Shown: in pieces, positions 9,655 through 45,847 of the stretch | How the letters are laid out: the number at the start of each line of letters is the position of its first letter | How positions within the stretch are numbered: the first letter of the stretch is position 1 | Assembly (NCBI GenBank): GCA_964016885.1 | Contig: OZ024743.1 | Span: forward strand, 271,312,001 to 271,376,000 | Reading direction: 5' to 3' | DNA from: Eledone cirrhosa | Taxonomy: Eukaryota | DNA: 64,000 bases | Program-made: the position numbers and the translations under genes | The notes under the pieces: model-generated | Told to the model about the DNA's origin: nothing | Database searches by the model: none | The model's input: the letters and a program-made list of their open reading frames with translations, nothing else

Positions 9655-9693
<39 letters not shown>

Positions 9694-10574
9694 CGAGGTG
9701 TGTCAGAAAAGTTCCAGGACTGATGTCACAAAATATTTATTTCAAACCCAAACTTCACACTAAGAGTTTTCTCCTTCAAAGTAATCCCCCTGGAGTATTT
9801 AACTAATCTTAGCTCTCTGCAGCGATCAAACTTTTTTCTTCATAATTTTATATACATGTCCTCTGTTTCAGGTCGTCAAGCAATGAGCACAGAGCAACGA
9901 ACAAACTTGAAAACTCCGTCAGAAGCACTGGGATTGCTGCAGCAAGTGTATGGAGATGAGACGATGTCACGCTCATGCGTTTTTGAGTGGTGCAAGAGGT
10001 TTAAAGAAGGACGCGAGGACGTGGAAGATGACCCCAGGAGCGGAAGGTCCTCAACAACCAGGACTGAGGTCAACGTTGAGCGCATCAGGCAGATGGTGTG
10101 TAGCGGTTGTCGGCTGATGGCAATTGAGCTGGGCATGAATTGGGACAGCGTTTGGAAGATTCTCACTGAAGATTTGGACATGCGGAAAGTCTGTGTGAAG
10201 ATGGTGCCAAAACTGCTGAACGATGACCAGAAGGGTCGACGCATGCAAGTGTGCCAGGACATCCTCGAGCGTCTTGAAACCGAACCAGATTTGCTAGGGA
10301 CAGTTACCACCGGTGATGAGTCATGGATCTTCGAGTACGACCCGGAGGGGACCCATTTTGAAGACGTGGACGATATCAAAAAGGCCGTGACGACGGAACT
10401 GCGGAGGGTCCCAGAAGAATCCTTCCAGGAGTGCATGCAAGCGTGGCAGAAAAGGATGGAAAAGTGTATTAGACTCCAGGGGGATTACTTTGAAGGAGAA
10501 AAATCTTAGTGTGAAGTTTGGGTTTGAAATAAATCTTTTGTGACATCAGTCCTGGAACTTTTCTGACCCACCTC

Positions 10575-10575
<1 letters not shown>
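9694..10575 (+). mobile_element. Internally deleted Tc1/mariner element (882 bp) with 103-bp TIRs
   Basis: TA flanks; TIRs 9694-9796 and 10473-10575. ORF has HTH region, MVPKLL (WVPHEL equivalent), TGDESW and C-terminal GDYFEG. Confidence 0.93.
9883..10509 (+). pseudogene. Mariner transposase derivative: DNA-binding region largely kept, most of the DD34D catalytic domain deleted in frame
   Basis: Open frame jumps from YDPE directly to GTHFEDVDDIK; the HDNA and YSPDLAP motifs are missing. Confidence 0.8.
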
Positions 10576-10610
<35 letters not shown>

Positions 10611-14485: not shown

Positions 14486-14604
14486 TGATCAACAGTCATG
14501 ATACAAAATCACACAACATATGGAATTATTCAACATTGTTAGCTCCAGTTTGGATTGATCCAAGTGGTTCAAGCCTTGATCATCATAACTTTATTAAGGA
14601 ATAT

Positions 14605-15270
14605 TATAACTAAGATGACATTATTCCGTTGATCATCTCATCTTATGGTATAGTATAACTAGGATTACACCATCTAGTTGATCATCTCATCTTAAGGTAT
14701 AATATAACTAGGATTACATTATCTAGTTGATCATCTCATCTTAAGGTATAATATAACTAGGATTACACCATCTAGTTGATCATCTCATCTTAAGGTATAA
14801 TATAACTAGGATTATACCATCTAGTTGATCATCTCATCTTAAGGTATAATATAACTAGGATTACACCATCTAGTTGATCATCTCATCTTAAGGTATAGTA
14901 TAACTAGGATTACACCATCTAGTTGATCATCTCATCTTAAGGTATAATATAACTAGGATTACACCATCTAGTTGATCATCTCATCTTAAGGTATAATATA
15001 ACTAGGATTATACCATCTAGTTGATCATCTCATCTTAAGGTATAATATAACTAGGATTACACCATCTAGTTGATCATCTCATCTTAAGGTATAGTATAAC
15101 TAGGATTACACCATCTAGTTGATCATCTCATCTTAAGGTATAATATAACTAGGATTACATTATCTAGTTGATCATCTCATCTTAAGTTATAATATAACTA
15201 GGATTATACCATCTAGTTGATCATCTCATCTTAAAGGTATAATATAACTAGGATTACACCATCTAGTTGA
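14605..15270. repeat. 49-bp minisatellite, about 13 copies
   Basis: Unit TCTAGTTGATCATCTCATCTTAAGGTATAATATAACTAGGATTACACCA; a diverged solo copy lies at about 15422-15470. Confidence 0.97.
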
Positions 15271-23186: not shown

Positions 23187-23866
23187 TGAGAGAGAGAAAA
23201 ATATACATATAAAGGATGAATTGACAGATTTGTTAGAACATTGGATAGAATGTTTTGTGGTATTCATTTCAGCCCTCTGCACCTGAGTTCAAATTTTGCC
23301 AATGTTAACTTTGCCATTCATCCTTTTGGGGTTGCTTAAAAAAAAGTATCAGTCTAGTACTGGGGTCGATGCTTCGTCTGTCTCACTTCTCCTCTATCAC
23401 TTGTTTTTCTGGAAGAAATCAACTGGTCACTGCCAGGTTTAAAATACCTGAGAAATGCATATGCCATGGTGCCCTTATGGGTCCACCAGGAGTTACGAGT
23501 CTGTATACTTACATATATATGTATGCAAAATGTAAACGGAAACAACAAAACAAAGAACACAGTACAATGAAGAAATATATTAGTTTAACACTTGATATAG
23601 TAGGAAAAGTGTTTTTAACTCTTTGGATACCGGTCATTCATCAAAAGATTGAATGAGAAATAAAAGATGAAATAGAAAGATAGTGAGATTCATTTTTGTA
23701 TTTGTTTTGCAAGATTCTTGTTGTGAAGTTGTTTGGTTGTTTGTTGAAACATACTTTGAGAGTGTCATGCTGCCATGACCCTCTCAAAGTATAATGATGT
23801 GTGTTATTTACTGGTTTCAGTCATTAGACTTAGGTCATGCTGGGGCACTGCATTGATTTAGTTGAT

Positions 23867-26800
23867 CAAATCTTGCATTTTTGCTTTTTGTTAATCGCTT
23901 GTTAAACAATCATAACCTTCCAGCTAGCTACCCAATTCCTCAATTCCTTAATTCTATCGTATTCTCAAAACAAAACAATCCTTCCCATTCTGCTTCTTAT
24001 AAATTCCTTTAAATATATATATTATGCTACTTCGAAAGTCAAAAATCCCGCTTCTACACCCAGGCACCCAGGCACCCTCCATCTACTTCACGAGGGACTG
24101 CGGTCAGCCACTCACTCTCTCTCTCACCCTCCCCCTCTCTCTCTCTCTCTCTCTCTTAGCTACATATATATATATATATATATAACATAAACTCCCCTTC
24201 ATGTTTAATCACTTTTCGCCAATTCATTGGTGTTTCAATTCAGTGCTGTTTCCTACTACGGTGTACCTCATGTAATCGTAATGTACACATTTTTCTATCT
24301 ACTCCACGCTTCAATTTCGTACCTAGTCCAAACATCCAATCTTGCAAAATCCGAAATCTGTATTTTCTTTTGTTATTTATGTTAAATACGGTAGTTTTTG
24401 TCGTATTGAACAGAACAAATCTTGCATTTTTGCTTTTTGTTAATCGCTTGTTAAACAATCATAACCTTCCAGCTAGCTACCCCACACCCCTCCCACCCGC
24501 CCCCACACACCACCATTCTTAATACGTGGACCAATCATAAGCCAGAGCCCCCCCCCCCCCACGCATCACCATTATTATTATTATTACGCGGACCAATCAT
24601 AAGCCAGAGGCCTATACTATCGCTTGCCCGGTTGCCTTCGATATATGATGGATGGATGGATGGACTGCGGAATCCTGGAGAGTGGAAGGGAGAGAAAAAT
24701 CTGGACGCTCAGCGAAAATGCCAAAGTTAAAGTCAAATTCACCTCGTGGACGAGAATGCGAGCACTCCTCTTTGTTTCGTCCGCGGATGGCTAACATAAC
24801 CCCATCTCTCCCCCGCCCCCCACCGCCCCCACCCTCCAAACGCAATCCAAAACTTCAGAGTTGGTACTATAAATGTAGGCACCCTAAAGGGTCGCGCTAA
24901 CGAGGTTGTAGAAATGCTTGAACGTAAGGAGGTCGATGTATGTTGTATTCAAGAGACCAGGTGGAGGGGTGGGTCTGCTAGATTCATTGAGGGTAAAAAA
25001 CGATGTTATAAGTTTTTCTGGGTGGGAAACGACGATGGGCTGGGTGGAGTAGGAATCATGGTAGCAGAAAAGTGGGCAGATAAGATAATAGACGTAAATA
25101 GAGTGAACGTCAGAATAATTAAAATACGACTTGTCCTCAATAGAACTACGGTGACAGTAATATCTGCGTACGCACCCCAATCCGGACTGCCCGGCACTAT
25201 AAAAGACAGATTCTATGAGACACTGATGCTAACTACCTCCCAAATATCCGACAGTGACTATATAATTATTGCAGGCGACCTAAATGGTCACGTTGGACAA
25301 CATTGTGACGGCTACGACGAAATCCATGGAGGCTATGGGTTTGGTACTAGAAATGAGGAAGGCTCCAGAATCCTGGATTTCTGTGATGCAAATAACCTAA
25401 CTATCTGTAACACTAACTTCAAAAAACGTGACAATCACCTGATCACCTATAGATCCGGGGAACACACAAGTCAGGTAGATTATATCCTTACCAGAAGACG
25501 TGACAGAGTGTCTGTCGTAAACACTAAATCCCTCCCCCATGAAGAATGCACCTCCCAACATAGACTGATAATTAGCGACCTCATAGTCAGGACGAGACGT
25601 ACTCGACAGCAGAAGAGGACTATCCTCAGGAGAAAAATATGGAAGCTAAAGGACCCCACAGCCAGAAATAAATTTCAAAGCATATTACTTGATGCTTTCG
25701 ACAGTAAGGAAGAACATTTACAGTCGGACAATATAGAGGGACAGTGGGAATTTCTGAAAGCAAACCTGCTGATGGCGGCAGACGAAGTCTGTGGCTGGAG
25801 CAGGCCTGTAGGCAGGAGGAGAGTAACATGGTGGTGGAACAGTAAAGTGGAGGGGTCAATTAAGGCCAAAAAGCAGGCTTGGAAAGTATGGCGGGATGGG
25901 GGAAGTAGAGAAGACTATCAAGTGGCCAGGAGGGAAGCTAGGAGACAAGTGTACTTAGCAAGAAGGGAAGCAGAGGAAAGAAAGTTCAAGCATGTTCTAC
26001 AACGCGAGGACCAAAAACGTGAGGTGTTCAGGATTGCTAGGCAATGCGTCAAGGAAAACCGTGATATTGTCGGGGAGAAGTGTGTACTAAACGATGATGG
26101 CACACTTGCCATCACCGACGCTGATAAGAAGGTAGCTTGGAAGTGTCACTATGAAAGGCTACTAAATGAGGAGAATAAATGGGAGAAAGACAGTCTCCCC
26201 CATATCGACCCAATAGAGGGACCAGCAGTGTTAGTCGAGGGGAGTATAATAAGTAAGGCAATCAAGGATATGAAGACGGGTAAGGCGGCTGGGCCTTCGG
26301 AAATAGTTGCTGAGATGCTGAAGGCATCTGGCACGGTGGGACACACCATGGTCACCCGCATAGTTAACCAAGTCGTACAGAATGGGGTTGTTCCGAAGGA
26401 CTGGCATAGCAGCATCATCGTTAACTGTTATAAGGGTAAAGGAGACGCCCTAGATAGGAGTAAATATAGAGGCATTAAATTAATCGACCAGGTCATGAAG
26501 GTCACGGAAAAAGTAATAGCGCAACTAATCAGAGAGAGAATTGACCTAGATGAAATGCAGTTCGGGTTTGTGTCAGGCAAAAGTACCACAGACGCTCTTT
26601 TCATAGTACGACAACTACAGGAGAAGTACCTAGCTAAAGGTAAACCCCTCTACTTAGCTTTTGTCGACTTGGAGAAAGCCTTCGACAGAGTCCCCCGCTC
26701 CATTATCTGGTGGGCTCTTAGAAAACTAGGCGTTGACGAATGGCTTGTGAGGGCTATACAAGCCATGTATAAAGAAACAGTCAGCAAGGTTAGAATTAAC

Positions 26801-28248
26801 AACGAATATAGTGAAGAGTTTAGCGTAAAAGTTGGCGTCCATCAGGGCTCTGTTCTCAGCCCCCTACTATTTATTATTGCCCTTCAGGCTATAACAGAGG
26901 AGTTCAAGACCGGCTGCCCATGGGAACTCCTATACGCAGATGACCTGACACTCATAGCGGAATCAATGGCCGAGCTAGAGAAGAAATTCCAAACATGGAA
27001 GCACGGCCTAGAGTCAAAAGGACTTAAAATTAACCTGGCTAAGACTAAAGTTCTAGTTTGTAGTTAAGAAAACAAGGCGGCGGTCCCTTCTGGGAAATGG
27101 TCGTGCTCGGTGTGTAGGAAAGGCGTAGGTAGAAACTCCATTTTATGTCCTAAATGCAAAGTATGGGTGCATAAAAGATGTAGTGGGATCACAGGTAAGC
27201 TAACTAAGAACATAGATTTTACATGTGGCCGGTGTTCTGGTGCAATAAGTAGCAGCAAGTGCCCACAAAATACTAGCTCTTTCAATTGCGCAGAGGGTTC
27301 TATAGAAATAGTGGACAGCTTCTGTTACCTGGGCGATAAAATCAGCAGTGGGGGAGGGTGCTCTGAAAGTACAGTAGCTAGAGTCAGAACTGGTTGGAAA
27401 AAGTTCAGAGAGCTTATACCACTATTAGCTGCTAAAGGGTTCTCCCTAAAAATGAAAGGCAGGTTGTACGATGCCTGCATACGAACAGCAATGTTGCATG
27501 GCAGTGAGACCTGGGCATTGTGTGCAGAGGATATACGCAGACTAGAGAGGAACGAAGCTTGCATGCTCCGCTGGATGTGTAACAGTAATATACGTGAACG
27601 GCAAAGCATAAACGAACTAAGGAAAAAATTAGAAATAAGAGGGATCAGATGTTGTTTACTCGAGAGAAGGCTACGTTGGTATGGACACGTGATGCGCATG
27701 AAAGTCGATAGCTGTATAACAAAGTGCAGGGCAATAAAGATAGACGGTAGCCACGGAATAGGCAGACCTAGAAAAACCTGGGACGAGCTGATAAACTCCG
27801 ACCTCACACACTTACACCTCTCCAAGACAATGTCACTGGACCGAGACCTTTGGCGGTACTCAGTAACAGAGAAGACCCGCCTTGCCAGTAGGCATCTCTA
27901 ACAAAATACACCCCGTCCCGCCACCCCCACCCCATCCACACCACCTCGTTCTATGTAAAGTTATGTTGGTGCCGCGCCATCCAGGCCGAAACAAATGAGA
28001 TCGTGTAGGTGTCACGACAAAAAAACACACAGTCCACGCTGTAATGTGGCCGTGTAGGCAACACGGTAAAAACCTCCCAGACCCACACTGTAAATGTGGT
28101 TGGTGTTAGGAAGGGCATCCAACTGTAGAAAACCTGCCAGACAGTCCTATGCGAGCAAGACAATCACTCTTGCCTCAAGTGGGACTACCCCCGTCCAAAC
28201 CCATGCAAGCGTGGAACACGGACGTTAAACGTTGATGATGATGATGAT
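23867..28248 (+). mobile_element. Full-length RTE-clade LINE, copy A (APE-RT with PHD-like finger)
   Basis: APE motifs (CIQETRW, SAYAPQ, AGDLNGH, SQVDYIL) and RT motifs (DLEKAFD, HQGSVLSP, YADD). About 1 kb 5' region, (GAT)n tail. Inserted into an older repeat with no clear TSD. Confidence 0.95.
24800..27901 (+). pseudogene. RTE ORF2 of copy A, interrupted by one premature stop at 27065-27067
   Basis: ORFs 24914-27067 and 27110-27901 are in the same frame; TGTAGTTAA here versus TGTAGGAAA in sister copies. The frame is open from 24800 without an ATG until 24914. Confidence 0.9.
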
Positions 28249-36696: not shown

Positions 36697-39600
36697 CCGC
36701 TTGTTAAATACGAGGACCTCATTCAATCCTTACCTTCTCGCTAACCCAACCTTAATTCCTTAATTCTATCGTATTTTCAAAGCAAAACAAAATCCTTTTT
36801 CTTCTTATAAATTCTTTTAAATATATTTGTTACTTCGAAAACTCTAAACTCCCGCTTCTACTATCTTCTCCCCCTCCCCTACTTCATGGGGGTTCGCGGT
36901 CAGCCACCCCAATATCTACATCATGCGGCCAAACCTATCCCCCCCCCCCATCTCTCTCTCTCTCTCTCTCTCCCTCTCTATCTATATATATACAAGATAA
37001 ACCCTTCAAGTAAATCACATTCGCCAAATTCATCGCTGCTTTCTTCACGGTATATCATGTAACGTAATGTACACATTTTTCTACCATTTCCACACTCCAT
37101 CGTATCCAGTTCAACCCTCCAACAATTCTATAGCATTTTCTCTTCCCCGAATCCAATCTTGCCAAATCCTACTGTAGTTTGTCGTATTTCCCAAAACAAA
37201 TCTGTATTTTTTGTTATTGCTTGTTAAATACGAGGGTTTTTGTTGTATTAAACAAAACAAATCTTGTATTTTTGTTATCGCTTGTTAAATACGAGGACCT
37301 CATTCAATCCTTACCTTCTCGCTAACTACCCAACACCCCTCCCTCCCGCCCCCACGCACCACCATTATTATTACGTGGACCAATCATAAGCCAGAGGCCT
37401 ATACTATCGCTTACCTGGTCGCCTTTCGATATATGATGGATGGATGGACTACGGAATTCTGGAGAGTGGAAGAGAGAAAAATCTGGACGCTCAGCGACAA
37501 TGCCAAAGATAAAGACAAATTCACCTCGTGGACGAGAATGCGAGCACTACTCTTTGTTTCGGCCGCGGATGGCTAACATAACCCCATCTCCCCCCGCTCC
37601 CACCCTCCAAACGCAATCCAAAACTTCAGAGTTGGTACCATGAATGTAGGCACCTTAAAGGGTCGCTCTAACGAGGTTGTAGAAATGCTCGAGCGTAAGG
37701 AGGTTGATGTTTGTTGTATTCAAGAGACCAGGTGGAGGGGTGGGTCTGCTAGATTCATTGAGGGTAAAAAACGACACTATAAGCTTTTCTGGGTGGGAAA
37801 TAACGATGGGCTGGGTGGAGTAGGAATCATGGTAGCAGAAAAGTGGGCAGATAACATAATAGACGTAAATAGAGTGAACGACAGAATAATTAAAATAAGA
37901 CTACGGTGACAGTAATATCTGCGTACGCACCCCAATCCGGACTGCCTGGCACTATAAAAGACAGATTCTATGAGACACTGATGCTCACTACCTCCCAAAT
38001 AACCGACAGTGACTATATAATTATTGCAGGCGACCTAAATAGTCACGTTAGACAACATTGTGACGGCTACGACGAAATCCATGGAGGCTATGGGTTTGGT
38101 ACTAGAAATGAGGAAGGCTCCAGAATCCTGGATTTCTGTGACGTAAATAACCTAACTATCTGTAACACTAACTTCAAAAAACGTGACAATCACCTGATCA
38201 CCTATAGATCCGGGGAACACACAAGCCAGGTAGATTATATCCTTACCAGAAGACGTGACAGAGTGTCTGTTGTAAACACTAAATCCCTCCCCCATGAAGA
38301 ATGCACCTCCCAACATAGACTGATAATTAGCGACCTAATAGTCAGGACGAGACGTACTAGACAACAGAAGAGGACTATCCTCAGGAGAAAAATATGGAAG
38401 CTAAAGGACCCCACAGCCAGAAATAAATTTAAAAGCATACTACTTGATGCTTTCGACAGTAAGGAAGAGCAATTAGAGTCGTACAATATAGAGGAGCAGT
38501 GGGAATTCCTGAAGGCAAACCTGCTGATGGCGGCAGACGAAGTCTGTGGCTGGAGCAGGCTTGTAGGCAGGAGGAGAGTAACATGGTGGTGGAACAGTAA
38601 GGTGGAGGGGTCAATTAAGGCCAAAAAGCAGGCTTGGAAAGTATGGCAGGATGGGGGAAGTAGAGAAGACTATCAAGTGGCCAGGAGGGAAGCTAGGAGA
38701 CAAGTGTACTTCGCAAGAAGGGAAGCAGAGGAAAGAAAGTTCAAGCATGTTCTACAACGCGAGGACCAAAAACGTGAGGTGTTCAGGATTGCTAGGCAAT
38801 GTGTCAAAGAAAACCGTGATATTGTCAGGGAGAAGTGTGTACTTAATGATGACGGCGTACTTGCCATCACCGACGCTGATAAGAAGGTAGCTTGGAAGTG
38901 TCACTATGAAAGGCTACTAAATGAGGAGAATAAATGGGAGAAAGACAGTCTCCCCCACATCGACCCAATAGAGGGACCAGCAGTGTTAGTCGAGGGTAGT
39001 ACAATAAGTAAGGCAATCAAGGATATGAAGACGGGTAAGGCAGCTGGGCCTTCGGAAATAGTTGCTGAGATGCTGAAGGCATCTGGCACGGTGGGACACA
39101 CGATGGTCACCCGGATAGTTAACCAAGTCGTACAGAATGGGGTTGTTCCGAAGGACTGGCGTAGCAGCATCATCGTTAACTGTTATAAGGGTAAAGGAGA
39201 TGCCCTAGATAGGAGTAACTATAGAGGCATTAAATTAATCGACCAGGCCATGAAGGTCACGGAAAAAGTAATAGCGCAACTAATCAGAGAGAGAATTGAC
39301 CTAGATGAAATGCAGTTCGGGTTTGTGTCGGGCAAAAGTACCACAGACGCTCTTTTCATTGTACGACAACTACAGGAGAAGTACCTAGTTAAAAGTAAAC
39401 CCCTATACTTAGCTTTTGTCGACTTGGAGAAAGCCTTCGACAGAGTCCCCTGTTCCATTATCTGGTGGGCTCTTAGAAAACTAGGTGTCGACGAATGGCC
39501 TGTGAGAGCTATACAAGCCATGTATAAAGAAACAGTCAGCAAGGTTAGAATTAACAACGAATATAGTGAAGAGTTTAGCGTAAAAGTTGGCGTCCATCAG

Positions 39601-41031
39601 GGCTCTGTTCTCAGCCCCCTACTATTTATTATTGCCCTTCAGGCTATAACAGAGGAGTTCAAGACCGGCTGCCCATGGGAACTCCTATACGCAGACGACC
39701 TAACACTCATAGCTGAATCAATGGCCGAGCTAGAGAAGAAATTCCAAACATGGAAGCACGGCCTAGAGTCAAAAGGCCTTAAAATTAACCTGGCTAAGAC
39801 CAAAGTTCTAGTTTGTAGGAAAGAAAATAAGGCAGCGGTCCCTTCCGGGAAGTGGCCATGCTCAGTGTGTAGGAAAGGCGTAGGTAGAAACTCCATTTTG
39901 TGTCAGAAATGCAAAGTATGGGTGCATAAAAGATGTAGTGGGATTACAGGTAAGCTAACTAAGAACATAGATTTCACATGTGGCCGGTGCTCTGGTGCAA
40001 TAAGTAGCAGCAAGTGCCCACAAATACTAGCTCTTTCAACTGCGCAGAGGGCTCTATAGAAATAGTGGACAGCTTCCGTTACCTGGGTGACAAAATCAGC
40101 AGTGGGGGAGGGTGCTCTGAAAGTACAGTAGCTAGAGTTAGAACTGGATGGAAAAAGTTCAGAGAGCTTATACCACTATTAGCCGCTAAAGGGTTCTCCC
40201 TAAAAATGAAAGGCAGGTTGTATGATGCCTGCATACGAACAGCAATGTTGCATGGCAGTGAGACCTGGGCATTGTGTGCAGAGGATATACGCAGACTAGA
40301 GAGGAACGAAGCTTGCATGCTCCGCTGGATGTGTAATAGTAATATACGTGAACGGCAAAGCATAAACGAACTAAGGAAAAAATTAGAAATAAGAGGGATC
40401 AGATGTTGTTTACTCGAGAGAAGGCTACGTTGGTATGGACACGTGATGTGCATGAAAGTCGATAGCTGTATAACAAAGTGCAGGGCAATAAAGATAGATG
40501 GTAGCCACGGAATAGGCAGACCTAGAAAAACCTGGGACGAGCTGATAAACTCCGACCTCACACACTTACACCTCTCCAAGACAATGTCACTGGACCGAGA
40601 CCTTTGGCGGTACTCAGTAATAGAGAAGACCCGCCTTACCTAAATACATAGTAAAACCTACTACAGTCACATAGGCATCTCTAACAAAATACACCCCCCG
40701 TCCCACCACCCCCACCCGATCCACACCGCCCCCTTCTATGTAAAGTTATGTTGGTGCCACACCATCCAGGCCGAAACAAATGAGATCGTGTAGGTGTCAC
40801 GACAAAAAAACACACAGTCCACGCTGTAATGTGGCCGTGTAGGCAACACGGTAAAAACCTCCCAGACCCACACTGTAAACGTGGTTGGTGTTAGGAAGGG
40901 CATCCAACTGTAGAAAACCTGCCAGACAGTCCTATGCGAGCAAGACAATCACTCTTGCTTCAAGTGGGAAAACCCCCGTCCAAACCCATGCAAGCGTGGA
41001 ACACGGACGTTAAACCTTGATGATGATGATG
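36697..41031 (+). mobile_element. Full-length RTE LINE, copy B (two frameshifts)
   Basis: Collinear with copy A. About 16-nt deletion near 37900 and 1-nt deletion near 40023; (GAT)n tail; possible TSD ACACAC (36691-36696 / 41032-41037). Confidence 0.95.
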
Positions 41032-41171
41032 ACACACATATATACTGACATATATTTTATTACTATTCCCATCTATGTATGCTTAACTGGCCTCATAGGT
41101 TTCTCAAGAGTTTTAGTGACAGGGGCTGTCTTTAGTCCTAACATGAAAAGCAACATGATGTGAAGTGTCTT

Positions 41172-41868: not shown

Positions 41869-42121
41869 CATATACATACACAAACATATATACATGTGTA
41901 TATACATATTTACACATTTTTGGATGGCCGTTGACTCTTATCATTTCTTCCGCCCTTTGTCAGGTTTTGTTTTTTGTCCTGCAGGGTGTCCAAAATTACC
42001 CTCCTCACCAAGTAAACTTGGTGGGGTTGCCTCGCCGACGACCCGACCATGCGACAGGTTGTACTAGTTTACATGTTACCAGTAGCACTCAAGACATATA
42101 TATATATACATATATACACAA

Positions 42122-43785
42122 GAGAAGTACCTAGCTAAAGGTAAACCCCTCTACTTAGCTTTTGTCGACTTGGAGAAAGCCTTCGACAGAGTCCCCCGCT
42201 CCATTATCTGGTGGGCTCTTAGAAAACTAGGCGTTGACGAATGGCTTGTGAGGGCTATACAAGCCATGTATAAAGAAACAGTCAGCAAGGTTAGAATTAA
42301 CAACGAATATAGTGAAGAGTTTAGCGTAAAAGTCGGCGTCCATCAGGGCTCTGTTCTCAGTCCACTACTATTTATTATTGCCCTTCAGGCCATAACAGAG
42401 GAGTTCAAGACAGGCTGCCCATGGGAACTCCTATACGCAGACGACCTGACACTCATAGCGGAATCAATGGCCGAGCTAGAGAAGAAATTCCAAACATGGA
42501 AGCACGGCCTAGAGTCAAAAGGACTTAAAATTAACCTGGCTAAGACCAAAGTACTAGTTTGTAGGAAAGAAAACAAGGCGGCGGTCCCTTCTGGGAAATG
42601 GTCGTGCTCGGTGTGTAGGAAAGGCGTAGGTAGAAACTCCATTTTATGTCCTAAATGCAAAGTATGGGTGCATAAAAGATGTAGTGGGATCACAGGTAGG
42701 CTAACTAAGAACATAGATTTTACATGTGGCCGGTGCTCTGGTGCAATAAGTAGCAGCAAGTGCCCACAAACTACTAGCTCTTTCAATTGCGCAGAGGGTT
42801 CTATAGAAATAGTGGACAGCTTCCGTTACCTGGGCGATAAAATCAGCAGTGGGGGAGGGTGCTCTGAAAGTACTGTAGCTAGAGTCAGAACTGGTTGGAA
42901 AAAGTTCAGAGAGCTTATACCACTATTAGCTGCTAAAGGGTTCTCACTAAAAATGAAAGGCAGGTTGTACGATGCCTGCATACGAACAGCAATGCTGCAT
43001 GGCAGTGAGACCTGGGCATTGTGTGCAGAGGATATACGCAGACTAGAGAGGAACGAAGCTTGCATGCTCCGCTGGATGTGTAACAGTAATATACGTGAAC
43101 GGCAAAGCATAAACGAACTAAGGAATAAATTAGAGATAAGAGGGATCAGATGTTGTTTACTCGAGAGAAGGCTACGTTGGTATGGACACGTGATGCGCAT
43201 GAAAGTCGATAGCTGTATAACAAAGTGCAGGGCAATAAAGATAGACGGTAGTCACGGAATAGGCAGACCTAGAAAAACCTGGGACGAGCTGATAAACTCC
43301 GACATCACACACTTACACCTCTCCAAGACAATGTCACTGGACCGAGACCTTTGGCGGTACTCAGTAACAGAGAAGACCCGCCTTACCTAAATATATAGTA
43401 AAACCTACTCCAGCCAGTAGGCATCTCTAACAAATACACCCCGTCCCACCACCCCCACCCGATCCACACCACCCCGTTCTATGTAAAGTTATGTTGGTGC
43501 CGCGCCATCGAGGCCGAAACAAATGAGATCATGTAGGTGTCACGACAAAAAAACACACAGTCCACGCTGTAATGTGGCCGTGTAGGCAACACGGTAAAAA
43601 CCTCCCAGACCCACACTGTAAATGTGGTTGGTGTTAGGAAGGGCATCCAACTGTAGAAAACCTGCCAGACAGTCCTATGCGAGCAAGACAATCACTCTTG
43701 CCTCAAGTGGGACTACCCCCGTCCAAACCCATGCAAGCGTGGAACACGGACGTTAAACGTTGATGATGATGATGATGATGATGAT
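42122..43785 (+). mobile_element. 5'-truncated RTE LINE, copy C (remaining frame intact; closest to copy A)
   Basis: 406-aa open frame from mid-RT to the native stop; long (GAT)n tail. Confidence 0.95.
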
Positions 43786-43920: not shown

Positions 43921-45468
43921 CTGGTCCCATCTGGGAAATAGCCATGCTCAGTGTGTAGGAAAGGAGTAGGCAGAAACTTCATTTTATGTCCCAAAATCAA
44001 AGTATGGGTGCATAAAAGATGTAGTGGGATCACAAGTAAGCTAACTAAGAATATAGATTTTATATGTGGAGGCACATGGCTTAGTGGTTAGAGCATTGGC
44101 CTTGCAATCGAAAGGTTGTGAGTTCAATTCTCAGACTGGGTGATGTGTTGTTTCCTTGAGCAAGGCACTTTATTTCACATTGCTCCAGTTTACTCAGCTG
44201 TAGAAATGAGATGATAGGGACTGGGGTCCCTATCATTCCACTGCAAAGTGGTCGTGGAGGTGCCACGGCAAAAAAGCACCCAGCACTCACTGTAAATGAG
44301 GTTGGTGTTAGGAAGGGCATCCAGCTGTAGAAATCAAGCCAGAATCAGTTCCCGTCCCACCCTTGCAAGCAGGGAAAAGTGGACGTAAAAATGAAATGAT
44401 GATGAATGATGATGTGGCTGGTGCTCAGGTGTAATAAGTAGCAGCAAGTGCCCACAGAATACTAGCTCATTCCATTGCACAGATGGTTCTATGGAAATAG
44501 TGGGCAGCTTCCGTTACCTGGGTGACAAAATCAGCAGTGGTGGAGGGTGCTCTGAAAGTACAGTAGCTACAGTCAGAACGGGATGGAAAAAGTTCAGAGA
44601 GCTTATACCACTATTGGCTGCTAAACGTTTCTCTCTAAAAATGAAAGGCAGGCTGTATGGTGCCTGCATACGAACAGCAATGTTGCATGGCAGTGAGACT
44701 TGGGCATTGTGTGCAGAGGATCTACGCAGACTGGAGAGGAACGAAGCTTGCATGCTCGGTTGGATGTGTAATAGTAATATACGTGAACGGCAAAGCATAA
44801 ATGAACTAAGTGAGAAATTAGGAATAAGAGGGATCAGATGCTGTTTACTCGAGAGAAGACTACGTTGGTATGGTCAGGTGATGCGCATGAAAGACGACAG
44901 CTGTATAAAAAAGTGCAGGGCGATCAAAATAGACGTTAGCCACGGAGTAGGCAGACCTAGAAAAACCTGGGACGACTTGATAAATTCCAAACTCACACAC
45001 TTACACCTCTCCAAGACAATGTCACTGGACCGAGATCTTTGGCGCTACACAGTAATACAGAAGACCCGCTTTGCCTAAGTGCAAAGCAAAACCTGCAGTC
45101 AGTAGACACCTCTTACCAAAATACACCCCCGTCCCACTACCCCCGTCCCATCCACACCACCCCCTTTCGATGTTGAGTCAAGTTATGTTGGTACCACAAC
45201 ATCCAGTCCTAAATAAATGAGGTCGTGTAGGTGTCACGACAAAAAAAAACACACAGTCCACGCTGTAATGTGGCCGTGTAGGTAACACGGTAAAAACCTC
45301 CCAGTCCACACTGTAAACGTGGTTGGTGTTAGGCAGGGCATCCAGCCGTAGAAAAGCCGCCAGACAGTCCTATACGAGCAAGACAACCAATCTTGCCTCA
45401 AGTGGTAAAATTACCGTCCAAACCCATGCTAGCGTGAAAGATGGACGTTAAATGATGATGATGATGAT
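43921..45468 (+). mobile_element. 5'-truncated RTE LINE, copy D, interrupted by a SINE
   Basis: Starts just before the PHD-like region, resumes at about 44412 after the SINE; (GAT)n tail. Confidence 0.92.
44070..44411 (+). mobile_element. SINE family 1, short-tail variant, nested in RTE copy D
   Basis: TSD-like ATGTGG (44064-44069 / 44412-44417); near-identical to 61888-62232. Confidence 0.9.
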
Positions 45469-45847
45469 ACACACACATATATACAAATACATACTTATAT
45501 ACATGCATTCAATGAAGTACATTATACATATTGTAAAAGCAGATAGGTAAGAGGTACTTACATAACCATAGTACCGTGAGGTGGGTTGAGATGGGGGTAG
45601 GGGTAGGGTGGAATGGAGGTGGAGGGGATATTATGTTGAGTGGGATTTTTTAAAAATAATTTTTTAGCCATCTGTCATCAACACTGGCTTAAGATATTTG
45701 AAAGTTGCAAAGTTTTTGTACATGCAATTCGGGCAGTGTTCAGAGAGTTTGTTCAGTGTTAGGCCCTTGGCAAATAGTATTTCGTGGCTCTCTGCTTTGT
45801 ATTGAGTAGCTTACTTACTGTGGTTACCCCCGATTGAACTCGGGATA

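What the first reader, a model, noticed from the sequence alone, without database searches (positions are those of the whole stretch)
23867..24482. Full-length RTE LINEs begin with a 550-580 bp module bounded by a copy-specific perfect direct repeat
Seen: copy A starts with 67 bp (23867-23933) repeated identically at 24416-24482 (period 549). Copy B starts with 48 bp (36698-36745) repeated identically at 37279-37326 (period 581). The repeats occupy the homologous position but differ between copies after CGCTTGTTAAA (A: CAATCATAACCTTCCAGCTAGCTACCC; B: TACGAGGACCTCATTCAATCCTTACCTTCTCGCTAAC). The whole module is visibly more diverged than the ORFs, and both 5' ends fall in the same short segment. 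Inference: the repeat is homogenised within each lineage. It could be a tandem monomer promoter (as in mouse L1) or an R-U-R end rebuilt by template jumping. I do not know this arrangement for RTE elements.
Basis: partly seen in the sequence, partly recalled or inferred. Interest (0 to 1): 0.75.

Follow-up and report, generated by a model that had tools for sequence, protein, structure and literature searches.

The report
RTE LINE head: regrowing monomer array
The two perfect repeats are the shortest form of a variable chain of roughly 500-700-base units (from a fragment of one to over 30) at the front of a young jumping-gene family, which likely regrows in place from a single unit and likely serves as a renewable promoter, as in mouse LINE-1.

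Summary
Both repeats are exact at the stated coordinates. They are not a fixed R-U-R end. They are the shortest state of a tandem monomer array on a single-ORF, RTE-like LINE.

Of 100 copies not chosen for 5' structure, 53 have no upstream monomer, 33 have one junction (upstream piece 13-485 bp) and 14 have two or more. One array has at least 31 monomers.

The repeats are lineage-specific, not copy-specific: A's 67-mer recurs exactly in 6 of 29 relatives. Homogenisation is strong: lineage variants sit in both monomers in 186 of 196 cases. Three of four tested variants occur at one locus only, yet in every monomer reaching the site. Periodically shared SNPs point to block duplication in place. 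An older subfamily has the same layout with an unalignable ~380-bp unit.

Promoter function is untested; no RNA data. It works like the mouse/rat L1 monomer-plus-tether head; my ten paper searches found no RTE case. The scan found this design before, in this and other genomes.

The parts
23867..23933 (+). Copy A: 5'-truncated upstream monomer (last 67 bp of a unit)
   Evidence: Exact repeat of 24416-24482; the same junction occurs in other copies
23934..24482 (+). Copy A: one complete 549-bp monomer with nested short sub-repeats, a TATA-like TATAAAT and CT/TA microsatellites
   Evidence: Unit boundaries from tandem arrays in relatives; motifs read from sequence
24483..24620 (+). Copy A: C-rich tether. 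A four-C-tract motif at 24480-24504 (G-quadruplex-like on the minus strand, GC-box-like) and two RRCCAATSR boxes near 24529 and 24591
   Evidence: Motif scan; tether motifs also visible in the older subfamily whose monomer does not align; function untested
24800..27901 (+). Copy A: single APE-endonuclease + RT + PHD reading frame, split by one stop at 27065-27067
   Evidence: an intact relative gives a 1122-aa stop-to-stop frame with the same domains
28227..28247 (+). Copy A: 3' end with (GAT)n tail
36698..36745 (+). Copy B: 5'-truncated upstream monomer (48 bp)
   Evidence: Exact repeat of 37279-37326
36746..37326 (+). Copy B: one complete 581-bp monomer of an older sub-lineage
37327..37420 (+). 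Copy B: C-rich tether with four C-tracts and one RRCCAATSR box
37421..41032 (+). Copy B: LINE body (5' UTR, broken ORF, (GAT)n tail), 94.5% identical to A

Best explanation
The two repeats are the minimal form (a 5' fragment plus one whole unit) of a variable tandem array of ~500-900-bp monomers joined by a C-rich tether to an RTE-like LINE; the array likely acts as a renewable promoter and likely regrows in place from one monomer after insertion. Shown: the array, its size range, the inherited junctions and the homogenisation. Inferred cycle: (1) Transcription starts in an upstream monomer, so the RNA carries one or more junctions. (2) Target-primed reverse transcription usually stops early and joins the target at AT-rich microhomology, so most copies get less than one monomer, or a fragment plus one monomer as in this window. 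(3) The fragment and its downstream twin seed unequal exchange or replication slippage, which amplifies that single monomer, with any private mutation, into 2 to over 30 copies. (4) Expanded copies are likely the stronger source elements. Repeated passage through one monomer keeps units within a copy nearly identical while lineages diverge. Old arrays may also collapse back to the fragment-plus-one state.
For: Array: 60 exact junction matches, 9 in one locus, control 0; 14 of 100 unselected copies with >=2 junctions; >=31 units in L321 and >=22 in L318, L320 and L323. Homogenisation: 38 shared variants are in both monomers 186 times, upstream only 6, proximal only 4 (44 copies); within-copy divergence 1.0% against 1.18% for twice the terminal ORF branch (38 copies). 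One-monomer bottleneck: variants found at a single locus genome-wide are in 31, 10 and 5 tandem units, and no within-array substitution is shared between sister copies (14 arrays). Growth in place: SNPs recur every 4-5 units in L318, 6-7 in L312 and 2 in L320; non-adjacent monomer pairs share variants in L145/146; L321's ORF is identical to a sister's yet carries a ~16-kb array. Multi-monomer RNA: junctions inside 5'-inverted segments of L147, L152 and L323/L370 (twin-priming reading recalled). Age of the design: an older subfamily (~85% identical) has the fragment-plus-one layout in 13 of 30 loci with a ~370-420-bp unit that does not align to A or B. Precedent: mouse L1 monomers are promoters and expand by unequal crossing-over or second-strand priming (PMC9022269, PMC6454616).
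Against: No transcript or start-site data. 5' ends show no sharp cluster of the kind that marks mouse L1 start sites. In the unselected sample, monomer number did not track a crude age proxy (77 copies; Spearman -0.05, p=0.65; Fisher p=0.16). The negative trend (rho -0.39) comes from a set selected for long arrays. Neighbour correlation of unit length was significant in only 1 of 10 arrays (L323, p=0.0016). In L324 the private variant is also in the distal fragment, which simple growth in place does not explain. One of four tested variants was not private (74 matches, 16 loci). A source absent from this assembly could also explain private variants. Long identical arrays and block duplications rest on one assembly.
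Confidence: 0.68

Rival explanations
1. The reverse transcriptase rebuilds the array during insertion. The RNA has a short terminal redundancy, and the enzyme repeatedly jumps from the RNA 5' end back to the monomer end (or slips during second-strand synthesis at the tether's G-quadruplex), copying one monomer many times.
For: 14 junction types all have their 3' breakpoint within -15..+9 bp of one landmark at the monomer/tether border, while unit lengths run from 198 to 772 bp. Mini-arrays of 26, 167 and 247 bp end at the same place. L321 has no SNP in 29 units. L324's private variant reaches the distal fragment. Variants only 13-47 bp from the junction are concordant.
Against: Junctions are inherited by clade. 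No pile-up of 5' ends at a start site. Periodic shared SNPs need copying of already mutated blocks. The breakpoint clustering is partly ascertained, because the sample was anchored on that end, and is also expected where homology between paired monomers ends. A 16-kb array would need about 30 successful jumps.
Confidence: 0.2
2. The array has no promoter role. It is a satellite-prone stretch carried along in read-through transcripts, which expands and collapses neutrally.
For: No start-site cluster. Monomer sequence turns over fast and is unalignable between subfamilies, while the CCAAT and GC-box-like motifs lie in the tether. Units as short as 26 bp amplify at the same site.
Against: The layout persists in three subfamilies with different units. 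47 of 100 copies reaching the monomer end retain a junction, which needs transcripts to start upstream of it routinely. Without an upstream start signal the array would erode by truncation.
Confidence: 0.1
3. The repeats and arrays are assembly artefacts.
For: Single assembly; homopolymer noise inside some arrays; one array abuts an N gap.
Against: The same junctions recur at dozens of independent loci and follow the ORF tree. Arrays carry locus-private and periodic variants. Exact array lengths may still be wrong.
Confidence: 0.02

Closest known systems
Mouse L1Md (A, Tf, Gf; ~200-bp monomers) and rat L1 (~600-650-bp monomers) 5' UTR: tandem monomers plus tether. PMC9022269 (passages, section 5), PMC6454616 (passages, Discussion), PMC5381506 (passages, section 9)
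   Same: Tandem monomers, then a non-repeated tether, then the ORF. Variable number per copy with a truncated 5'-most monomer. Old subfamilies mostly start in monomer 2 (71.6% of A_III). Rare very long arrays are attributed to unequal crossing-over. The monomer is replaced between lineages.
   Different: Different LINE type (one ORF with APE, RT and PHD; (GAT)n tail). AT-rich monomer with microsatellites rather than a CpG island. No clustered 5' ends. A heavier tail: 5 of 100 copies with >=10 junctions, against 7 of 5765 mouse loci with >10 monomers. No position-specific monomer variants detected, whereas mouse subtypes show position preference. Promoter activity is shown for mouse and untested here.
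RTE-2_OV of Octopus vulgaris (PMC9115989, passages)
   Same: RTE-clade LINE with one ~1109-aa ORF (endonuclease, RT, zinc finger), a microsatellite 3' end and a ~600-nt 5' UTR.
   Different: The word 'tandem' does not occur in that text, and no monomer array appeared in the passages seen. No sequence comparison was possible, and the host of this window was not identified by any search.
Dictyostelium TRE5-A A-module (PMC3159450, passages)
   Same: A discrete 5' module of a non-LTR element with promoter activity.
   Different: 200 bp and a two-ORF element. That A-modules occur in tandem is my recollection and was not in the passages seen.
LTR R-U-R ends and Drosophila TART non-terminal repeats (recalled; PMC1636488 search listing only)
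   Same: Repeats kept identical within an element by re-copying.
   Different: Here there is no copy of the module at the 3' end, and the repeat length is not fixed.

Membership tests
RTE-clade LINE | Single ORF with APE endonuclease and RT, no separate ORF1 | tested here: met
   1122-aa stop-to-stop frame with Exo_endo_phos, RVT_1 and PHD; no long ORF upstream
RTE-clade LINE | Short tandem-repeat 3' tail | tested here: met
   (GAT)n tail in the window copies and in relatives
RTE-clade LINE | RT phylogeny groups with named RTE elements | not tested
   285 homologues (best 52-56% identity) carry no clade names; no labelled reference was available
RTE-clade LINE | HDV-like self-cleaving ribozyme in the 5' UTR (recalled for some RTEs) | tested here: inconclusive
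   Rfam gave only chance-level hits; my own unvalidated descriptor gave 0 hits
Rodent-L1-type monomer promoter | Head-to-tail monomers, variable number, truncated 5'-most unit | tested here: met
Rodent-L1-type monomer promoter | Non-repeated tether between array and ORF | tested here: met
Rodent-L1-type monomer promoter | 5' ends clustered at a monomer position (start site) | tested here: not met
   Ends spread over 13-485 bp in 31 one-junction copies; 62 of 85 next to (TA)n
Rodent-L1-type monomer promoter | Younger subfamilies carry more monomers | tested here: inconclusive
   Long arrays lie mostly on near-identical young copies (selected set); none with >=2 junctions in 30 B-type and 30 older loci; not significant within the unselected sample
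Rodent-L1-type monomer promoter | Additive promoter activity of monomers | not testable with these tools
   Needs reporter or CAGE data
Rodent-L1-type monomer promoter | Element is an L1 (ORF1 + ORF2, poly-A tail) | tested here: not met
   One ORF and a (GAT)n tail: an analogue, not a member
LTR-like R-U-R end | Fixed-length R and a matching repeat at the 3' end | tested here: not met
   Upstream piece of 13-485 bp or many whole units; no 3' copy

The most novel reading that the evidence does not exclude
The element's own reverse transcriptase regenerates its promoter at insertion by repeatedly re-entering the template at a fixed site at the monomer/tether border (marked by a G-quadruplex-like tract), so one monomer is copied up to 30 times in a single event. 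This would be an LTR-like strand-transfer solution to promoter loss in a LINE, and a direct retrotransposon route to macrosatellites.
Probability: 0.2. Interest if true: 0.8.

Novelty: new variant of a known kind. Interest (0 to 1): 0.5.

Why it matters
LINEs lose their 5' ends when they move, and how mouse L1 restores and homogenises its monomer promoter is stated as unresolved (PMC6454616). Here a non-L1 LINE appears to have reached the same design independently. It has hundreds of datable copies, arrays from 0.1 to over 30 units, and locus-private variants fixed across whole arrays. That makes the two proposed mechanisms (copying during insertion versus unequal exchange afterwards) separable with population long reads or a marked-monomer assay. 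It also shows LINE heads growing into 10-16 kb macrosatellites.

Tried and rejected
RNA: no RNA holder listed. Logan contigs of three runs from one sample, of unrecorded kind, were laid on 23800-24950. The junction bins had depth, but no listed piece bridged the junction, so this says nothing either way.

Ribozymes: Rfam gave only chance hits. My HDV descriptor and a hammerhead-core scan gave none.

Target-site duplication as the origin of the repeat: rejected, because the repeat recurs at the same element position at many loci. True TSDs could mostly not be called because flanks are TA-rich.

A start site just upstream of the junction: only 6 of 45 monomer-start matches end within 25 bp of it, so no support.

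My first junction pattern missed the youngest lineages and understated array size; the unselected sample corrected this. One search crashed and was replaced. The 5'-end classes were curated by hand; 31 of 33 one-junction copies had a measurable end. One search left out six atypical loci (L125, L139, L140, L145, L147, L154) and upstream pieces under 80 bp. One search trimmed diverged 5' columns, which lowers its within-copy divergence, untrimmed, showed spurious recurrent differences from three misaligned ends.

Ten paper searches listed no paper describing monomer arrays on RTE elements. The library lacks most subscription journals and Repbase Reports, and no supplements were opened.

Full report
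Observation. Exact extension confirms both repeats: 67 bp at 23867-23933 and 24416-24482, and 48 bp at 36698-36745 and 37279-37326. Shuffles give at most 10 bp. Both head the same LINE, which has one frame with APE endonuclease, RT and a PHD finger, and a (GAT)n tail. Copy A has a stop in the frame and copy B is broken; an intact relative gives 1122 aa stop to stop. A and B are 94.5% identical in the body, and four-fold sites differ by 8.1%. The modules differ at 12-16% of aligned columns plus many indels. The genome is 3.0 Gb. No call names the host. RTE membership rests on structure, not on a tree.

What the module is. Among 30 loci found with A's body start, 8 (the window copy included) had an upstream repeat of 42-318 bp, always ending at the same point. 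Among 30 B-type loci, 6 did. An exact junction pattern matched 60 times genome-wide (control 0), 9 times in a row at one locus. So the unit is a monomer (23934-24482 in A) and the 'R' is the remnant of the next one upstream. For an unselected sample I took the first 100 of 293 exact matches to the monomer/tether border. Junction counts were 0 in 53 copies, 1 in 33, 2-6 in 8, 8 in one, and 10 or more in 5 (one of the five is built of 247-bp sub-units). Extending the longest arrays gave 32 landmarks in L321 (~16 kb), at least 25 in L318, at least 24 in L320 and 23 in L323. In 31 one-junction copies the upstream piece was 13-485 bp (median 145; 7 of 31 at 65 bp or less). That is shorter than the monomer part of the 53 copies without a junction (median 292; p=0.0003). 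62 of 85 5' ends lie next to (TA)n. An older subfamily, about 85% identical, shows fragment-plus-one in 13 of 30 loci (two of them duplicates). Its ~370-420-bp unit does not align to A or B, while the C-rich, CCAAT-bearing tether is recognisable. No B-type or older locus showed two junctions within 1.5 kb.

Homogenisation. The repeat is lineage-specific. A's 67-mer is exact in 6 of 29 relatives and B's 48-mer in 3 of 29. Over 42 copies the upstream piece is 1.35% from its own proximal monomer and 1.37% from the best other copy, and self was strictly best in 16. Junction sequences follow the ORF tree, with one new junction amplified three times in L165. In 44 copies, 38 variants seen in two or more copies were in both monomers 186 times, upstream only 6 and proximal only 4. 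Of 36 single-copy variants, 12 were in both. Within-copy divergence (1.0%) is close to twice the terminal ORF branch (1.18%), though the two do not correlate per copy (rho 0.20, p=0.24). Among 14 very young arrays, sisters differ by changes fixed across all units of a copy, and no within-array substitution is shared between sisters. Of four such changes tested genome-wide, three occur at one locus only, in 5, 31 and 10 tandem units; the fourth marks a sub-lineage of 16 loci. Arrays therefore pass through a single monomer at about every transposition, unless the sources are missing from this assembly.

Mechanism. For growth in place: SNPs repeat every 4-5 units in L318, every 6-7 in L312 and at two units in L320. 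Non-adjacent pairs share variants in L145/146. Unit lengths run in blocks in L323 (p=0.0016; the other nine arrays were not significant). In L325 the distal fragment is too short to reach the private site, and L321 has 31 matches for 32 landmarks, as expected if a fragment-plus-one insertion was the seed. L324 does not fit, because its fragment carries the variant. For multi-monomer RNA: three copies have 5' inversions with junctions in the inverted part, read as twin priming (recalled). For re-copying by the reverse transcriptase: 14 junction types end within -15..+9 bp of one landmark while unit length varies from 198 to 772 bp. Mini-arrays of 26, 167 and 247 bp end there too, just before a four-C-tract motif. 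This clustering is partly ascertained and is also expected where homology between mispaired monomers ends. I favour growth in place (0.68 with the promoter step) over re-copying at insertion (0.2). The two can coexist. The shorter fragments in one-junction copies fit either a broad start region or preferential collapse of long fragments; I could not separate these.

Promoter role. This is inferred from position, persistence across three subfamilies and analogy. TATA-like, GC-box-like and CCAAT motifs are present, but motif matches are not function, and the CCAAT and GC-box-like motifs lie in the tether. 5' ends do not cluster as they do in mouse L1. The age trend known from mouse was not significant in the unselected sample.

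Comparison. Mouse and rat L1 have monomers plus a tether. Young mouse subfamilies average 3-4 monomers, old ones mostly start in monomer 2, and 7 of 5765 loci exceed ten (PMC9022269, section 5 and passages). Expansion is attributed to second-strand priming or unequal crossing-over and is called unresolved (PMC6454616, Discussion and passages). The lizard, frog and fish L1 5' UTRs discussed there are not described as monomer arrays (PMC5381506, section 9). This element works like that design but is not an L1. Passages on an octopus RTE (PMC9115989), an octopus repeat annotation (PMC13282606), TRE5-A (PMC3159450) and a review (PMC2881922) describe no such array. Ten searches listed no RTE case, within a library that lacks most subscription journals and Repbase. 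Earlier notes of this scan report the same design in this genome and others. I consulted them after forming my reading; they are unchecked and not counted as support.

Verdict. A real feature, correctly seen and half-correctly read. It is a new variant of a known kind, with unusually clean evidence for single-monomer bottlenecks and an untested promoter role. Interest 0.5.

Noticed in passing
window 9666-10609: A Tc1/mariner-like element: 110-bp inverted repeats (9687-9796 / 10473-10582, 97%) around a frame with Mos1-type HTH matches; appears internally deleted.
   Followed up: partly
window 14594-15270: Tandem array with a 98-bp period, about 7 copies, 95% alike.
   Followed up: no
window 42118-43776, 43923-45495, 51944-49909, 6645-6111: Further 5'-truncated copies of the same or related LINEs; the one at 51944-49909 has a ~123-bp duplication near its 3' end.
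   Followed up: no
L121-L175 and L211-L310 flanks: Insertions are mostly flanked by (TA)n, often with the same locus-specific TA-rich unit expanded on both sides; 62 of 85 5' ends abut (TA)n. This suggests a target preference, or growth of microsatellites from target duplications.
   Followed up: partly
L154, L312, L317, L326, L327, L368: Sub-monomer arrays (26, 144, 167, 198, 247, 416 bp) inside or instead of monomers, some as higher-order repeats.
   Followed up: partly
L314, L315, L323 (body alignment columns 156-296): Nine substitutions clustered in about 140 bp of the 5' UTR mark one young lineage, likely a recombination patch from another subfamily.
   Followed up: no
L143:3365-4129: A 71%-identical fragment of an older LINE 3' region lies in reverse inside the proximal monomer (period 1442).
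   Followed up: no
L146, L171: Second LINE copies lie head to head with the element; in L146 a long (TA)n stretch lies directly upstream of the array.
   Followed up: no
window 27068-27235: A PHD finger follows the RT domain in the single ORF and is common among the homologues found.
   Followed up: no
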